From the sequence record OR352956.1: a stretch of 64,000 bases of DNA; one strand, given 5' to 3'. Below, one piece after another: positions 60,249 to 62,313 of the stretch. The notes beneath the pieces are model-generated. The model did no database searches. It saw nothing but the letters and a program-made list of their open reading frames with translations, and was not told where the DNA came from. The position numbers and the translations under genes were made by a program. The DNA is from Escherichia phage AV126. The stretch's first letter is position 1, and the number at the start of each line of letters is the position of its first letter.

Positions 60249-60323
60249 GGCCCTGTAGCTCAATGGGAGAGCTGTCGGCTCATAACCGATAGGTAGCTGG
60301 ATCGAAACCAGCCAGGGCCACCA
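60249..60323 (+). tRNA. tRNA with CAT anticodon (Met or lysidine-Ile2 type)
   Basis: cloverleaf folded by eye: acceptor GGCCCTG/CAGGGCC, anticodon loop CTCATAA, T-arm GCTGG-ATCGAAA-CCAGC, CCA encoded. Confidence 0.7.
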
Positions 60324-60325
60324 AC

Positions 60326-60400
60326 GTCTTTATGGTGTAATGGATAGCACAGGAGTCTTCTAAACTCTTAGTCAAGGTTCGATTCCTTGTAAAGACACCA
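60326..60400 (+). tRNA. tRNA-Arg (TCT)
   Basis: acceptor GTCTTTA/TAAAGAC, anticodon loop CTTCTAA, T-loop TTCGATT, CCA encoded. Confidence 0.7.
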
Positions 60401-60645
60401 GAACATTTTAACATGAATTAGCTCAAGTGATTTGAACCCACTACTGATCATGGTGGCAGAGAATGAGGCAAGTATGTCAGACATTATAAACAAAGGCCAC
60501 GGTTATATTAGAAGACATAAATGCTCGAAGAGCACCGTTCGTGGAGAACGGGGGTTGGTGGAGTCACCATTCATGGTAAAATGTTTTAAAAAACTATTGA
60601 CAACAAACATTATTTTATGTTAGATTATAAGTATGGAAGGGCAAA

Positions 60646-60727
60646 TCGACGTGGCGACGAAAACGGTCTTGAAAACCGCCGAGCTTGAAAGAGCCTTGGG
60701 AGTTCGACTCTCCCTCCTTCAGCCAGA
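60646..60727 (+). tRNA. tRNA-like element, possibly degenerate tRNA-Ser (TGA)
   Basis: canonical T-arm GGGAG-TTCGACT-CTCCC and candidate anticodon loop CTTGAAA, but imperfect acceptor and D arms; promoter-like TTGACA at 60597. Confidence 0.3.
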
Positions 60728-60729
60728 TT

Positions 60730-60815
60730 AGGTAGATTGGTGAAATGGTAGCCACGACAGTTTGCTAAACTGTAGTCGGAAACGGCGTGTAGGTTCGAGT
60801 CCTACATCTACCGCC
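60730..60815 (+). tRNA. tRNA-Ser (GCT)
   Basis: acceptor GGTAGAT/ATCTACC, anticodon loop TTGCTAA, long variable arm, G discriminator, CCA encoded. Confidence 0.7.
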
Positions 60816-60946
60816 AAGTTCTTTTTAATGTAGCTTACTTTAGCAGAGTAAATCTTCGGCAAGTGGCGGTAACCACTTTACCGATAACTCATAGTTAGTG
60901 GTGCGAACACTGGCTATTTTAAAAAGAATTTAAATATTAGTATTTA

Positions 60947-61034
60947 GGTGAGTTAATTCCGTAGGGGTAGCGGGGCAGACTGTAAATCTGTTATCATTGC
61001 GATTCGGGTGGTTCGACTCCATCACTCACCACCA
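60947..61034 (+). tRNA. tRNA-Tyr (GTA)
   Basis: acceptor GGTGAGT/ACTCACC, anticodon loop CTGTAAA, long variable arm, T-loop TTCGACT. Confidence 0.7.
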
Positions 61035-61040
61035 AATTAA

Positions 61041-61126
61041 GATGAGTTGGCTGAATGGTTTAAGCGGCGGACTGTTAATCCGTGTTCGAAAGAACAATAT
61101 AGGTTCGAATCCTATACTCATCGCCA
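61041..61126 (+). tRNA. type-II (long variable arm) tRNA with GTT (Asn) anticodon
   Basis: perfect acceptor GATGAGT/ACTCATC, Ser-like D arm, anticodon arm GCGGA-CTGTTAA-TCCGT, variable hairpin GTTC-GAAA-GAAC, T-arm ATAGG-TTCGAAT-CCTAT, G discriminator. Confidence 0.55.
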
Positions 61127-61133
61127 GAATTAT

Positions 61134-61211
61134 GGACTTGTAGAGTTAAGGTAAACCCCCCAGTCGCCAATAGGCTTCTGGAATTGCAGGTATCGAATCC
61201 TGCCGAGTCCC
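61134..61211 (+). ncRNA. tRNA-like element, unresolved
   Basis: 7-bp acceptor-like pairing GGACTTG/CGAGTCC and T-arm-like GCAGG...CCTGC but no canonical anticodon arm found by eye. Confidence 0.25.
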
Positions 61212-61217
61212 AGCATT

Positions 61218-61292
61218 GCTCCTATAGTATAATGGCTATTACAACGGTTTTGTAATCCGTGGATCTCTGTTCGATTCAGTGTGGGAGCACCA
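61218..61292 (+). tRNA. tRNA-Thr (TGT)
   Basis: acceptor GCTCCTA/TGGGAGC, anticodon loop TTTGTAA (one mismatch in anticodon stem), CCA encoded. Confidence 0.55.
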
Positions 61293-61565
61293 ACACAACA
61301 TTAAGAGCACTGTGATTGATCGTCGTATCCTGTGCACAAGGTCTGCTCGAAAGACAGTGTTCTTAGTATTGTGTTGATCACAAAAAGAGTCACCCGAAAC
61401 TTGACCGGAGTAGGGTTGGATGGGGAAAAATGAGAAGCGGCTCTCCCATTGACAGCAACGAAGAATAATATTTGACTTTGGTTTTGTATTATTTTAAGTT
61501 AGCTTACCGAACGTAGGGCTAGTCACCCAACGGGATACTCGTCACTGTCCCAATCAATAAAAGTC

Positions 61566-61595
61566 TTGACAACAAATAGTAAAATGTAGTATAGT
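61566..61595 (+). promoter_or_regulatory. sigma70-like promoter (TTGACA - 18 nt - TATAGT) driving the downstream tRNA group
   Basis: consensus -35 and near-consensus -10 about 11 nt upstream of tRNA-Gly. Confidence 0.6.
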
Positions 61596-61606
61596 AAATA
61601 TATAGG

Positions 61607-61680
61607 GCGTTCTTGGTGTAGCGGTAGCATTCCGTCCTTCCAAGTCGGCGGCACGAGTTCGATCCTCGTAGAACGCTCCA
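61607..61680 (+). tRNA. tRNA-Gly (TCC)
   Basis: acceptor GCGTTCT/AGAACGC, anticodon loop CTTCCAA, U discriminator, CCA encoded. Confidence 0.65.
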
Positions 61681-61778
61681 AATTATTTAATAAAGGGTTG
61701 CCAGAAAACTTTCTCTTTTACTCATGGTTTTCTCCTTCTCTCACACTTCTTCTGGTTGCCCTTCATTAAATGATTTAT

Positions 61779-61854
61779 TGGTTTGTAGTGTAGTCCGGTA
61801 GCACACGACACTTTGACTGTCGTAGGTTTGGTTCAAATCCAGACAGACCAGCCA
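61779..61854 (+). tRNA. tRNA-Gln (TTG)
   Basis: acceptor TGGTTTG/CAGACCA with U1-A72, anticodon stem CGACA/TGTCG, loop CTTTGAC, G discriminator. Confidence 0.7.
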
Positions 61855-61859
61855 TATAA

Positions 61860-61936
61860 CGGAATTTAGCTCAGTTTGGTAGAGCATACGCTTTGGGAGC
61901 GTAGGGTCGCAGGTTCGAATCCTGCAATTCCGACCA
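61860..61936 (+). tRNA. tRNA-Pro (TGG)
   Basis: acceptor CGGAATT/AATTCCG, D arm GCTC-AGTTTGGTA-GAGC, anticodon loop TTTGGGA, T-loop TTCGAAT. Confidence 0.75.
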
Positions 61937-61942
61937 ATTTAA

Positions 61943-62016
61943 TGTTTCGTAGTTCAATGGTAGAACCCACGACTGATAATCGTGAGACACAAGTTCGATT
62001 CTTGTCGAAACAACCA
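61943..62016 (+). tRNA. tRNA-Ile (GAT)
   Basis: acceptor TGTTTCG/CGAAACA, anticodon stem CACGA/TCGTG, loop CTGATAA, T-loop TTCGATT. Confidence 0.75.
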
Positions 62017-62018
62017 GT

Positions 62019-62091
62019 TTCCCGTTAGACTTACAGGATAAGAGTTCCACAGCTTATTGTGATGCTGGTTCGAATCCAGCACGGGATACCC
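62019..62091 (+). ncRNA. tRNA-like element, anticodon unresolved
   Basis: canonical T-arm GCTGG-TTCGAAT-CCAGC and acceptor-like TTCCCGT/ACGGGAT, but D and anticodon arms could not be folded by eye. Confidence 0.3.
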
Positions 62092-62094
62092 AAT

Positions 62095-62174
62095 AGCGGG
62101 ATAGAGGAGTCTGGTCGTCCTCGCCAGTTTCATATGCTGGAGATCATCGGTTCGAATCCGATTCCCGCCTCCAA
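62095..62174 (+). tRNA. tRNA-Met (CAT), 1:72 mismatch
   Basis: acceptor AGCGGGA/TCCCGCC with unpaired A1/C72, anticodon stem CCAGT/GCTGG, loop TTCATAT, T-loop TTCGAAT. Confidence 0.6.
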
Positions 62175-62288: not shown

Positions 62289-62313
62289 AGCCTCCTTATT
62301 GGAGGCTTTTTGC
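62289..62313 (+). terminator. rho-independent terminator closing the tRNA cluster
   Basis: AGCCTCC-TTAT-TGGAGGCT hairpin plus TTTTTG. Confidence 0.65.

What the first reader, a model, noticed from the sequence alone, without database searches (positions are those of the whole stretch)
61041..61126. Type-II tRNA (long variable arm, Ser-like D arm) carrying an Asn GTT anticodon arm
The element folds with a perfect 7-bp acceptor stem, perfect T-arm, a 15-nt variable hairpin (GTTC-GAAA-GAAC), a G discriminator, and an anticodon arm GCGGA-CTGTTAA-TCCGT, which is the arm of a canonical bacterial tRNA-Asn. Asn tRNAs normally have a short variable loop; long arms are restricted to Ser, Leu, Tyr and Sec. 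A chimeric architecture like this could alter aminoacylation identity (SerRS recognises the long arm and G73; AsnRS recognises the GUU anticodon), or it may be a non-functional relic.
Basis: partly seen in the sequence, partly recalled or inferred. Interest (0 to 1): 0.55.

Follow-up and report, generated by a model that had tools for sequence, protein, structure and literature searches.

The report
Phage asparagine tRNA with extra arm
This is a real, conserved phage tRNA that reads asparagine codons but carries an extra hairpin arm normally seen only on Ser/Leu/Tyr tRNAs; it belongs to a widespread, almost phage-only family (also in T5 and phiKZ) whose extra arm may protect it from bacterial tRNA-cutting immune nucleases.

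Summary
ARAGORN, the Rfam tRNA model (62 bits) and free-energy folding all give an 86-nt type-II cloverleaf with anticodon GUU, G73 and a GUUC-GAAA-GAAC variable hairpin. Positions 26-43 are identical to E. coli tRNA-Asn.

It is neither a relic nor a one-off chimera. The window is a Phapecoctavirus-type E. coli phage, and the same architecture is the tRNA-Asn of T5, phiKZ, T4-like Klebsiella/Serratia phages, Vequintavirinae, jumbo phages and many metagenomic viral contigs. It makes up about 10% of sampled viral tRNA-Asn. It is essentially absent from 185,579 bacterial species genomes and 5,426 E. coli genomes.

All helices covary, including the extra hairpin. G73 is near-universal and U1-A72 is frequent, whereas serine hallmarks are not conserved: G2-C71 varies, and the arm is shorter and hinged differently from phage tRNA-Ser arms.

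Published work shows that T5's tRNA-Asn helps rescue cells when the PARIS nuclease AriB cuts host tRNA-Asn. The most likely reading is a functional, AsnRS-charged tRNA-Asn. The arm's role as a steric shield against anticodon-stem nucleases is inferred, not shown. Seven literature searches found no description of this architecture.

The parts
61041..61126 (+). Whole tRNA gene: type-II tRNA-Asn(GUU), 83-nt body plus encoded CCA
   Evidence: ARAGORN; Rfam RF00005 62.1 bits; RNAfold cloverleaf; tRNAscan-SE annotation in relatives
61041..61047 (+). Acceptor stem 5' strand GAUGAGU (G1-C72, A2-U71, U3-A70 ...)
   Evidence: the 7 pairs covary across 43 homologues (99.3% paired)
61050..61065 (+). D arm: 3-bp stem GCU/AGC, 10-nt loop GAAUGGUUUA (type-II style, G13.A22 unpaired, G18G19 present)
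   Evidence: D-stem pairs 100% paired with double changes
61067..61083 (+). Anticodon arm GCGGA-CUGUUAA-UCCGU; together with G26 (61066) identical to E. coli tRNA-Asn
61074..61076 (+). Anticodon GUU (reads AAC/AAU, asparagine)
61084..61098 (+). Variable region: 4-bp hairpin GUUC-GAAA-GAAC (61084-61095) followed by 3 unpaired nt AAU (61096-61098). U at 61098 (nt 48) can form the tertiary Levitt pair with A15
   Evidence: all 4 hairpin pairs show changes on both sides in the family, and the 15-48 pair is G-C in 21 and A-U in 8 of 43 sequences
61099..61115 (+). T arm AUAGG-UUCGAAU-CCUAU
   Evidence: 100% paired, 4 of 5 pairs covary
61116..61122 (+). Acceptor stem 3' strand ACUCAUC
61123..61123 (+). 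Discriminator G73 (an identity element for both AsnRS and SerRS)
   Evidence: G in 44 of 45 unique family members after correcting three 1-nt-shifted ARAGORN calls; this base was not part of the search pattern
61124..61126 (+). Genome-encoded CCA 3' end
60249..62173 (+). Surrounding tRNA operon (context): Met/Ile2-CAU, Arg-UCU, Ser-UGA, Ser-GCU, Tyr-GUA, Asn-GUU, Thr-UGU, Gly-UCC, Gln-UUG, Pro-UGG, Ile-GAU, Met-CAU. A terminator-like hairpin lies at 62289-62307

Best explanation
The element is the phage's own working asparagine tRNA. It belongs to a phage-specific family of type-II tRNA-Asn(GUU). It is transcribed within the + strand tRNA operon and processed to an 86-nt tRNA with encoded CCA. 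It is charged with asparagine by the host AsnRS, which reads G34-U35-U36 and G73, both present, with the whole anticodon arm identical to the host tRNA. It then decodes AAC/AAU during infection. The extra 3-4-bp GNRA-capped hairpin in the variable region is a selected structural feature of the family, not a serine identity signal. Its most likely role is to make the phage copy a poor substrate for host tRNA-cleaving immune nucleases that target tRNA-Asn(GUU), such as PARIS AriB, which cuts between nt 40 and 41. The variable region runs from the top of the anticodon stem (nt 44) to the D-loop (nt 48 pairs with nt 15). A hairpin inserted there would therefore project between the two modelled AriB contact points, 40|41 and D-loop 16-17. 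Shown: the structure, its conservation and covariation, its restriction to phages, the presence of the Asn identity elements, and (published, for the T5 homologue) a contribution to rescue from AriB toxicity. Inferred: charging by AsnRS, and the shielding role of the arm. My estimates are about 0.8 for 'functional Asn-decoding tRNA' and about 0.35-0.4 for 'the arm is an anti-nuclease shield'.
For: Structure. Family and distribution: 757 phage records match the tRNA. Long-arm Asn was verified in T5, CHI14, KPV15 and Muenster, in phiKZ/2PS, VEcB and Erwinia pEp_SNUABM_01, and in 64 IMG/VR contigs. Bacterial genomes gave only 2 genuine cases in 185,579 species genomes, and 5,426 E. coli genomes gave none. 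It is the only tRNA(gtt) in each of the first 35 loci, including T5-like phages with up to 28 tRNAs. Covariation is seen in all helices including the extra hairpin. Asn identity set: GUU plus G73 are the E. coli determinants and are transplantable (PMC9976931). G73 is present in 44 of 45 members and U1-A72 in 26 of 43. The anticodon arm is identical to host tRNA-Asn. Other long-arm phage tRNAs mostly have the discriminator seen in the short-arm tRNAs of the same isoacceptor: Lys(CUU) A73 in 2 of 3 (one U73), Trp G73 in 5 of 5, Thr A or U73. Lys(UUU) is an apparent exception, one sequence scored C73, and the Glu comparison is not clean. On balance this argues that the arm does not redirect identity. 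Experiment (literature): E. coli tRNA-Asn(GUU) is depleted and cleaved by AriB at 40|41, and co-expression of T5 tRNA-Lys, tRNA-Thr and tRNA-Asn almost completely restores growth (PMC12409363). The T5 tRNA-Asn in question is the 83-nt long-arm gene, the only tRNA-Asn in the T5 tRNA region. T5's rescuing tRNA-Thr(UGU) is also type II, 87 nt. phiKZ and Xanthomonas phage X1 carry a short and a long tRNA-Asn together, which suggests the two are not redundant.
Against: No aminoacylation, expression or cleavage data exist for this phage's tRNA. All functional evidence is by homology to T5, and there the tRNA-Asn effect was seen only under plasmid overexpression together with two other tRNAs. The paper's authors themselves allow that viral tRNAs could act as competitors. 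The window's tRNA has none of the point substitutions implicated in AriB escape: its anticodon stem-loop is identical to the host's and U16 is retained. Any resistance would therefore have to come from architecture alone, which is untested. AriB contacts come from an AlphaFold 3 model, not an experimental structure. AsnRS is a class II enzyme; from memory, class II enzymes approach tRNA from the variable-region side, so a long arm could in principle hinder charging. G73, C11-G24 and G1-C72 are also compatible with SerRS. Long arms also occur on phage Trp, Glu, Ile and Phe tRNAs, which are not known AriB targets, so a PARIS-specific explanation is too narrow. This phage encodes no tRNA-Lys(UUU), the prime AriB target.
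Confidence: 0.6

Rival explanations
1. Neutral or historical arm. The tRNA is a normal AsnRS-charged tRNA-Asn, but the long arm has no function of its own. It would be a legacy of descent from a type-II ancestor (Tyr GUA or Ser GCU by an anticodon shift, or a hairpin insertion into tRNA-Asn). It would then be kept only because the D arm and core co-adapted, and spread among phages by exchange of tRNA clusters.
For: Bodies are heterogeneous: a 3-bp Ser/Tyr-type D arm in most members, but a canonical Asn-like 4-bp GUUC...GAAC D arm in Erwinia phages. This fits mosaic evolution. tRNA clusters are flanked by homing endonucleases (SegB cuts inside the T2L tRNA-Asn gene, PMC2330249). The window tRNA shows no sequence-level escape changes.
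Against: The hairpin is maintained by compensatory substitutions over large divergence, with a strongly preferred GNRA loop. The form is almost absent from bacteria yet recurrent in unrelated phage lineages. Short and long copies coexist in phiKZ and X1. The same feature recurs on T5 tRNA-Thr. All of this points to selection in the phage context.
Confidence: 0.25
2. Decoy or inhibitor. The long-arm tRNA acts mainly as a competitive, non-productive ligand for a host tRNA-targeting nuclease or another tRNA-binding defence or regulatory factor. It would present a host-identical anticodon arm on a body that cannot be cut or released, rather than serve mainly in decoding.
For: The anticodon arm is identical to the host target. 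The authors of PMC12409363 raise competition or inhibition by overexpressed viral tRNAs as a possibility. Short and long Asn coexist in some jumbo phages.
Against: In T5-like and this phage's lineage it is the only phage tRNA-Asn within otherwise ordinary decoding sets. It keeps every feature needed for charging and translation: G73, encoded CCA, a canonical T arm, G18G19 and Levitt-pair covariation. No binding data exist.
Confidence: 0.1
3. Identity switch to serine. SerRS recognises the long arm plus G73 and charges the tRNA with serine, giving phage-programmed Asn-to-Ser mistranslation at AAY codons.
For: SerRS ignores the anticodon and relies on the long arm and tertiary shape, with G73 contributing (PMC9976931). 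The window tRNA has G73, G1-C72, a 3-bp Ser-type D stem with C11-G24, and the same total length (86 nt) and 4-bp GAAA-capped arm size as the phage's own tRNA-Ser(GCU).
Against: G2-C71, conserved in bacterial tRNA-Ser, is A2-U71 here and is not conserved in the family. Ten of 43 members have C2-G71, a listed SerRS antideterminant, and 26 of 43 have U1-A72 instead of G1-C72. The arm hinge differs from tRNA-Ser in the same phages: 0-1 unpaired nt on the 5' side and 3-4 on the 3' side, against 1 and 1, and the stems are shorter. It is the only tRNA-Asn of phages with full tRNA sets. The T5 homologue helps restore growth when host tRNA-Asn is destroyed, which is hard to reconcile with proteome-wide Asn-to-Ser substitution. 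Long-arm Lys and Thr relatives carry non-G discriminators.
Confidence: 0.05
4. Non-functional relic or pseudogene, or a mis-called tRNA whose true anticodon or fold differs.
For: Neighbouring odd tRNAs in the same cluster are flagged 'pseudo' in some records, and ARAGORN misses two of them.
Against: Three independent methods agree on the same fold and anticodon. All stems are perfect. The gene is conserved with covariation across hundreds of phages. The T5 homologue is active in vivo.
Confidence: 0.02

Closest known systems
Canonical bacterial tRNA-Asn(GUU) (E. coli asnT/U/V/W)
   Same: The anticodon GUU, the whole anticodon arm plus nt 26 (18 of 18 nt) and G73 are identical. The T-loop is conserved and CCA is encoded. 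It presumably has the same synthetase and the same Q34/t6A37 modification signals (inference).
   Different: 15-nt variable region with a 4-bp hairpin instead of a 5-nt loop; 3-bp type-II D stem instead of the 4-bp GUUC/GAAC stem; G1-C72 and A2-U71 instead of U1-A72 and C2-G71; 66% overall identity.
Phage T5 tRNA-Asn(GUU), one of three T5 tRNAs that counter PARIS/AriB (PMC12409363)
   Same: Same family: a long variable arm (GUC-GAAA-GAC), G73, the same anticodon loop, and 87% identity over nt 24-77. It is the sole tRNA-Asn of its phage.
   Different: T5 has a 4-bp D stem (GCCA/UGGC), C16, a U28-A42 pair in the anticodon stem and a 3-bp arm. The window tRNA keeps the host C28-G42 pair and U16 and has a 4-bp arm. 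Functional data exist only for T5.
Bacterial and phage type-II tRNA-Ser (e.g. this phage's tRNA-Ser(GCU), 60731-60816)
   Same: Long variable arm with a GAAA loop, 3-bp D stem with unpaired 13.22, G73, G1-C72, and the same 86-nt length.
   Different: The anticodon is not a Ser anticodon. A2-U71 replaces G2-C71. The arm starts directly after nt 43 and is followed by 3 unpaired nt, whereas Ser has 1 unpaired nt before and 1-2 after. Identity is only 72%.
Phage tRNA variants that evade anticodon nucleases through point substitutions (T5 tRNA-Lys against AriB; van den Berg et al. 2023, PMC10264068)
   Same: A phage-encoded copy of a host tRNA that is targeted by an immune nuclease, located in a large lytic-phage tRNA cluster.
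   Different: Those cases rely on base changes in the anticodon loop or stem or at U16. Here the anticodon stem-loop is unchanged and the difference is an added structural domain. Neither PMC10264068 nor PMC12409363 mentions the variable arm.
Allo-tRNAs and other non-canonical tRNAs with Ser-type bodies and non-Ser anticodons (Mukai et al. 2017, PMC5389517)
   Same: A long variable arm combined with a non-Ser/Leu/Tyr anticodon, found in part in phage or metagenomic sequence.
   Different: Allo-tRNAs have 8/4 or 9/3 acceptor/T-stem configurations and Ser or Ala identity independent of the anticodon. This tRNA has the canonical 7/5 configuration and keeps the Asn identity set.

Membership tests
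tRNA (Rfam RF00005) | Cloverleaf: 7-bp acceptor stem, D arm with G18G19, 5-bp anticodon stem with a 7-nt loop and U33, 5-bp T stem with a GTTCGAATC-type loop | tested here: met
   62.1 bits against a gathering score of 29; ARAGORN; MFE fold; covariation
Type-II (class II, long variable arm) tRNA | Variable region longer than 10 nt that forms its own stem-loop | tested here: met
   15 nt, with a 4-bp stem and GAAA loop; all 4 pairs covary in the family
Type-II (class II, long variable arm) tRNA | 3-bp D stem with an enlarged D loop (13.22 not Watson-Crick) | tested here: met
   GCU/AGC with G13.A22 and a 10-nt loop; not universal in the family, since T5 and the Erwinia phages have 4 bp
Bacterial tRNA-Asn (AsnRS substrate) | Anticodon G34 U35 U36 | tested here: met
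   determinants per PMC9976931
Bacterial tRNA-Asn (AsnRS substrate) | Discriminator G73 | tested here: met
   G at 61123; 44 of 45 family members
Bacterial tRNA-Asn (AsnRS substrate) | U1-A72 first pair (typical of bacterial tRNA-Asn; a determinant for GatCAB in the indirect pathway) | tested here: not met
   The window has G1-C72. 26 of 43 family members have U1-A72. E. coli uses AsnRS directly, so this pair is not required for charging there (PMC9976931 for the pair's role in amidation; E. coli's use of the direct pathway is from memory)
Bacterial tRNA-Asn (AsnRS substrate) | Short (4-5 nt) variable loop, type-I body | tested here: not met
   15-nt variable region against 5 nt in E. coli tRNA-Asn
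Bacterial tRNA-Asn (AsnRS substrate) | Aminoacylated with asparagine by AsnRS | not testable with these tools
   Only indirect evidence: the T5 homologue contributes to rescue when host tRNA-Asn is cleaved (PMC12409363)
Bacterial tRNA-Ser (SerRS substrate) | Long variable arm of Ser-type length and orientation | tested here: not met
   Asn family: 3-4 bp stems with 3-4 unpaired nt on the 3' side. Phage tRNA-Ser in the same loci: mostly 5-7 bp with 1 unpaired nt on the 3' side. That arm geometry matters for class II tRNA discrimination is stated in PMC9976931
Bacterial tRNA-Ser (SerRS substrate) | G1-C72 and G2-C71 (conserved in bacterial tRNA-Ser) | tested here: not met
   G1-C72 is present but 2-71 is A-U. 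Across the family, 2-71 is G-C in 26, C-G in 10, A-U in 6 and U-A in 1. C2-G71 is listed as an antideterminant
Bacterial tRNA-Ser (SerRS substrate) | Discriminator G73 | tested here: met
   (shared with the Asn identity set, so it does not discriminate)
Bacterial tRNA-Ser (SerRS substrate) | Serylation by SerRS | not testable with these tools
   Requires an in vitro aminoacylation assay
Allo-tRNA / tRNA-Sec | Non-7/5 acceptor/T configuration (8/4, 9/3, 8/5, 9/4) | tested here: not met
   7-bp acceptor stem and 5-bp T stem
Phage anti-defence tRNA (nuclease-resistant copy of a targeted host tRNA) | Same anticodon as a host tRNA known to be cleaved by an immune nuclease | tested here: met
   E. 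coli tRNA-Asn(GUU) is an AriB target (PMC12409363)
Phage anti-defence tRNA (nuclease-resistant copy of a targeted host tRNA) | [quoted passage not shown] | tested here: not met
   Positions 26-43 are identical to the host and U16 is retained
Phage anti-defence tRNA (nuclease-resistant copy of a targeted host tRNA) | Demonstrated resistance to cleavage, or rescue of infection | not testable with these tools
   Shown only for the set of three T5 tRNAs under overexpression

The most novel reading that the evidence does not exclude
Long variable arms grafted onto normally short-arm tRNAs (Asn, Thr, Lys, Trp and others) are a general, phage-specific anti-defence adaptation. [quoted passage not shown] It would sterically block bacterial immune nucleases that cut the anticodon stem or loop (PARIS AriB and similar), while leaving synthetase recognition, which for Asn rests on the anticodon plus base 73, intact. 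This would be escape through architecture rather than through point mutation. It would explain why T5's PARIS-countering tRNA-Asn and tRNA-Thr are both type II, and why phiKZ and Xanthomonas phages keep a short and a long copy side by side.
Probability: 0.3. Interest if true: 0.8.

Novelty: new variant of a known kind. Interest (0 to 1): 0.62.

Why it matters
Textbooks restrict long-arm (type-II) tRNAs to Ser, Leu, bacterial Tyr and Sec, and the arm is treated as the hallmark that SerRS reads. This finding shows a large, conserved and almost exclusively viral family of type-II tRNA-Asn. Parallel long-arm Thr, Lys and Trp tRNAs exist, and the family is present in the model phages T5 and phiKZ. 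If the tRNA is charged with Asn, AsnRS, EF-Tu and the ribosome must tolerate a long arm on a class IIb substrate, and SerRS must reject it through arm geometry. That makes it a natural test case for identity rules and a possible scaffold for orthogonal tRNA engineering. If the arm protects against immune tRNases, it is a new mode of phage counter-defence, and it could help explain why T5's tRNA-Asn and tRNA-Thr work against PARIS. The idea is directly testable with existing AriB assays. Practically, annotation pipelines label these genes simply as tRNA-Asn, so the unusual architecture goes unrecorded.

Tried and rejected
1. Alternative fold or anticodon. ARAGORN, the Rfam covariance model and RNAfold all converge on the same structure and on GUU, so this is rejected.
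2. Recent C35U mutant or duplicate of the phage's tRNA-Ser(GCU), or A36U mutant of tRNA-Tyr. Identity to the co-resident Ser(GCU) is only 72%, and no co-resident tRNA is close in seven phages tested. This is rejected as a recent event; a deep origin remains open.
3. A 'Ser-like body' as a family trait. The Erwinia phage members have an Asn-like 4-bp D arm and T5 has GCCA/UGGC, so this is rejected.
4. A host or prophage origin in E. coli. There was no match in 5,426 genomes.
5. Presence in bacteria. Of 12 pattern hits in 185,579 species genomes, 9 are non-tRNA chance matches (one of them in L074, where ARAGORN also calls a separate ordinary 75-nt tRNA-Asn), 1 is a repeated 3' fragment, and 2 are real long-arm genes on MAG contigs.
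6. Promoter scan. The number of sigma-70-like sites does not exceed the shuffled expectation (7 against 7.8), so no promoter claim is made. The terminator-like sites are enriched (7 against 2.4).
7. Literature. Seven full-text searches and reading of PMC12409363, PMC9976931, PMC2330249, PMC10264068, PMC11555353, PMC13056530, PMC7609411, PMC13191261 and PMC2474678 found no description of a long-arm tRNA-Asn. Older subscription papers on T5 tRNA gene sequences are not searchable here, so prior description cannot be excluded.
8. Codon-usage explanation. Asn codons are 46 per 1000 in the window's long ORFs with an AAT bias. That could explain carrying a tRNA-Asn but says nothing about the arm.
9. 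Not attempted. Protein tools were irrelevant, and 3D modelling of RNA-protein complexes is not available.
Full report
**Observation.** The 86 bases at 61041-61126 (+) read GAUGAGU-UG-GCU-GAAUGGUUUA-AGC-G-GCGGA-CUGUUAA-UCCGU-GUUC-GAAA-GAAC-AAU-AUAGG-UUCGAAU-CCUAU-ACUCAUC-G-CCA. ARAGORN calls tRNA-Asn(gtt) at exactly these coordinates. The Rfam tRNA covariance model scores 62.1 bits (gathering score 29, E=3e-12) and places a 12-nt insertion in the variable region. I verified the E. coli tRNA-Asn sequence against 5,425 of 5,426 complete genomes; positions 26-43 of the phage tRNA are identical to it.

**Context.** The window is 98-99% identical to Phapecoctavirus (Stephanstirmvirinae) E. coli myoviruses of about 150 kb. 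The tRNA lies in a + strand cluster at 60249-62173 holding 10 ARAGORN-called tRNAs. Two further tRNAs are seen by Rfam and by tRNAscan-SE annotations of relatives: Ser-UGA near 60636 and Tyr-GUA at 60947-61031. The finding is thus the last of four consecutive long-arm tRNAs (Ser, Ser, Tyr, 'Asn'). No ORF of 50 aa or more overlaps it, and a strong terminator-like hairpin follows the cluster at 62289-62307. Deposited records annotate the gene as plain tRNA-Asn-GTT.

**It is a family, not an accident.** A sensitive BLAST with the 86-nt sequence hit 757 phage records. I extracted representatives and folded them with ARAGORN. The tRNA-Asn genes of T5 (Demerecviridae), Serratia CHI14 and Klebsiella KPV15 (Tevenvirinae), the jumbo Klebsiella phage Muenster, Escherichia phage VEcB (Justusliebigvirus), Erwinia pEp_SNUABM_01 (Vequintavirinae) and Pseudomonas phiKZ/2PS are all 83-87 nt. 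Each has a 3-4-bp hairpin in the variable region.

Pattern scans gave the following:
- The Asn anticodon arm followed by a GAAA-capped hairpin matched 64 IMG/VR viral contigs of 7-405 kb.
- The same pattern matched only 12 places in one genome each of 185,579 bacterial and archaeal species. Just two of these, both on MAG contigs, are real long-arm tRNA-Asn genes.
- No E. coli genome holds one.
- In a sample of viral contigs selected only for the host-type Asn anticodon arm, about 10% of tRNA-Asn genes are long-armed (8 of 106 newly fetched; 10 of 97 unique). These also show other loops such as GUAA, GCAA and UUAA.

In each of the first 35 loci the long form is the only tRNA(gtt), including T5-like phages with up to 28 tRNAs. 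In contrast, phiKZ and Xanthomonas phage X1 carry a canonical and a long tRNA-Asn together.

**Structural constraint.** In an alignment of 43 distinct family members, the proposed structure is paired in 95.9% of cells. The figure is 66% for column shuffles (0 of 500 reach the observed value) and 33-45% when partners are slid. 21 of 25 pairs show changes on both sides. These include all 7 acceptor pairs, all 3 D-stem pairs, 4 of 5 T-stem pairs and all 4 pairs of the variable hairpin. The tertiary 15-48 pair alternates between G-C (21) and A-U (8). This excludes a relic.

**Which amino acid?** Per the tRNA identity review PMC9976931, E. coli AsnRS identity rests on G34, U35, U36 and G73, and can be transplanted into another tRNA body. 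SerRS ignores the anticodon, relies on the long arm and tertiary shape, and is helped by G73 and acceptor-stem pairs. G1-C72 and G2-C71 are conserved in bacterial tRNA-Ser, and C2-G71 is listed as an antideterminant.

In the family:
- G73, which was not part of my search patterns, is present in 44 of 45 unique sequences.
- The 1-72 pair is U-A, as is typical of bacterial tRNA-Asn, in 26 of 43 and G-C in 16.
- The 2-71 pair is not conserved: G-C in 26, C-G in 10, A-U in 6 (including the window), U-A in 1.
- The arm itself differs from tRNA-Ser arms in the same phage loci. Asn arms have 3-4 bp and 3-4 unpaired nucleotides on the 3' side. Ser arms mostly have 5-7 bp and a single unpaired nucleotide.
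- Other long-arm phage tRNAs mostly have the discriminator seen in the short-arm tRNAs of the same isoacceptor: Lys(CUU) A73 in 2 of 3 (one U73), Trp G73 in 5 of 5, Thr A or U73. Exceptions exist, such as one Lys(UUU) scored C73 and an unclear Glu comparison. On balance this argues that the arm does not hijack identity.

The tRNA is also not a recent mutant of a Ser or Tyr gene. Its best identity to a co-resident tRNA is 72%, to Ser(GCU), against 66% to E. coli tRNA-Asn. I therefore rate Asn charging as likely (about 0.8) and Ser charging as unlikely (about 0.05). Neither was testable here.

**Experimental anchor.** Belukhina et al. [quoted passage not shown] Co-expression of the T5 tRNA-Lys, tRNA-Thr and tRNA-Asn almost completely restores growth and restores infection by sensitive phages. 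The T5 tRNA-Asn is the 83-nt long-arm gene, the only tRNA-Asn in the T5 tRNA region. The T5 tRNA-Thr(UGU) is also type II: 87 nt, a 3-bp D stem, and a 3-bp GUAA-capped arm followed by 4 unpaired nt. T5 tRNA-Lys instead has an enlarged D loop. That paper never uses the word 'variable', and the eLife paper on phage tRNA escape mutations mentions neither Asn nor the variable arm.

**Proposed mechanism of the arm (inference).** AriB is modelled by AlphaFold 3 as a dimer. One active site sits at 40|41 of the anticodon stem, and the second monomer reads D-loop U16-U17. In canonical tRNA tertiary structure (established knowledge, recalled from memory), the variable region runs from nt 44, at the top of the anticodon stem, to nt 48, which pairs with nt 15 next to 16-17. 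A hairpin inserted there would project between the two footprints.

The window's tRNA is informative because it has none of the T5-type point substitutions: its anticodon stem-loop is identical to the host's and U16 is retained. Any escape would have to be architectural. This fits the restriction to phages, the covariation, the short-plus-long pairs in jumbo phages and the recurrence on Thr and Lys. It remains untested, and long arms also occur on phage Trp, Glu, Ile(UAU) and Phe tRNAs that are not known AriB targets. Rivals are a neutral historical arm, a decoy role, serine charging and a relic; they are scored separately.

**Comparison and novelty.** The gene is a tRNA and a type-II tRNA by every structural criterion tested. 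It meets the two sequence determinants of Asn identity, but not the type-I body or, in this phage, U1-A72. It fails two tRNA-Ser hallmarks, G2-C71 and the arm geometry. It is not an allo-tRNA or a tRNA-Sec, because its acceptor/T configuration is 7/5. The gene itself is already annotated as tRNA-Asn in hundreds of records, and its T5 homologue is in experimental use, so the sequence is not new. What appears unremarked in the literature I could search is the architecture, its phage specificity and its possible link to anti-defence (7 searches). Older subscription papers on T5 tRNA genes could not be searched. I classify it as a new variant of a known kind.

**Limits.**
- The search patterns fixed the anticodon arm, and in two scans the GAAA loop, so conservation of those parts is by construction.
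- Bacterial absence was tested only for the GAAA-type pattern.
- Hosts of the IMG/VR contigs are unknown.
- All functional statements for this phage rest on homology.

Noticed in passing
window 61127-61217 (+); also L001/L002 and L036 2586-2664: The 91-nt spacer between tRNA-Asn and tRNA-Thr folds well (z=-2.8) into a tRNA-like Y. It has an acceptor-like stem GGACUUG/CGAGUCC, a central hairpin and a T-arm-like GCAGG-UAUCGAAU-CCUGC. It is about 97% conserved in other Phapecoctavirus genomes. It is also present in a different genus (VEcB) with compensatory changes in all three stems (GCUUG/CAAGC, CUAGA/UCUAG, GUAGG/CCUAC). There is no Rfam hit and no ARAGORN call. It may be a stable tRNA-like small RNA, like the extra small RNAs of the T4 tRNA cluster.
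   Followed up: partly
L003 10004-10090 (phage T5); also L009, L019, L052, L071, L031: T5 tRNA-Thr(UGU) is also a type-II tRNA: 87 nt, a 3-bp D stem, and a 15-nt variable region with a GGA-GUAA-UCC hairpin and 4 unpaired nt. It is one of the three T5 tRNAs shown to counter PARIS. Long-arm Thr(UGU) occurs in several other viral contigs. In the window itself, tRNA-Thr (61218-61292) is an ordinary 75 nt.
   Followed up: partly
L202 1484-1572 (Xanthomonas phage XacN1), L203 1475-1563 (phage X1), L204 1500-1589 (Caulobacter phage CcrPW): These are long-arm tRNA-Lys(CUU) genes. Their anticodon, variable and T arms closely resemble the phiKZ-type long-arm tRNA-Asn (85-88% over about 60 nt), but they have anticodon CUU and, in XacN1 and X1, discriminator A73. 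This suggests anticodon and discriminator switching within one long-arm lineage. XacN1 and X1 also carry a normal short tRNA-Lys next to the long one.
   Followed up: partly
L205 829-904 and 3001-3087 (phiKZ); L203 753-838 and 845-920 (Xanthomonas phage X1); L050: Some jumbo phages encode both a canonical short tRNA-Asn(GUU) and a long-arm one. This argues that the two forms are not simply redundant.
   Followed up: no
L037 1065-1151, L065, L039, L069 (Trp); L044, L053 (Glu); L069 (Lys UUU, Gly); L047, L066, L031 (Ile UAU 91-95 nt): Long variable arms, often GAAA-capped, also occur on phage tRNA-Trp(CCA), Glu(UUC), Lys(UUU), Gly(UCC), Phe and especially Ile(UAU). In the sample, 29% of unique Ile tRNAs, 13% of Phe and 10% of Asn had variable regions of 10 nt or more. 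Some of these may be ARAGORN mis-folds or introns; they were not checked individually.
   Followed up: no
window 60636-60723 and 60947-61034 (+): Two further long-arm tRNAs in the cluster are non-canonical enough that ARAGORN misses them. Ser-UGA's best Rfam hit is tRNA-Sec at 32.7 bits, below gathering, and its MFE fold is no better than shuffles. Tyr-GUA scores 39 bits on the Rfam tRNA model, and its MFE fold is not a cloverleaf. One deposited record calls them Ser-TGA and Tyr-GTA; another omits the first and flags the second 'Pseudo-GTA'.
   Followed up: partly
window 60249-60323 and 62095-62173 (+): The two CAU-anticodon tRNAs are annotated inconsistently in relatives. The first is 'Ile-CAT' (lysidine-type Ile2) in ASO2A but Met elsewhere. 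The second has an unpaired first acceptor position and an 11-nt D loop, and is 'Pseudo-CAT' in Mt1B1_P17.
   Followed up: no
L084 1655-1700 and 2086-2130 (Saprospiraceae MAG contig): There are two direct copies of a 3' fragment starting in an Asn anticodon arm and continuing into a long hairpin (ACCCCGAAAGCUUUCGGGGU). Only the first copy runs on into a T-arm-like sequence. It looks like duplicated attachment-site remnants of an element integrated in, or carrying, a long-arm tRNA-Asn.
   Followed up: no
L080 2619-2700 (Actinomycetes MAG contig) and L031 2302-2384 (125-kb viral contig): Two outliers. L080 combines the GUU anticodon and a long arm with A73 and a Tyr-like CCCGAG...GGG D arm, so it may be a tRNA-Tyr with A36U. 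L031's long-arm Asn has an aberrant T loop (AGCGUUA) and a D loop without GG, and sits beside ARAGORN calls of 'SeC(tca)' at 97 nt and Ile(tat) at 91 nt.
   Followed up: no
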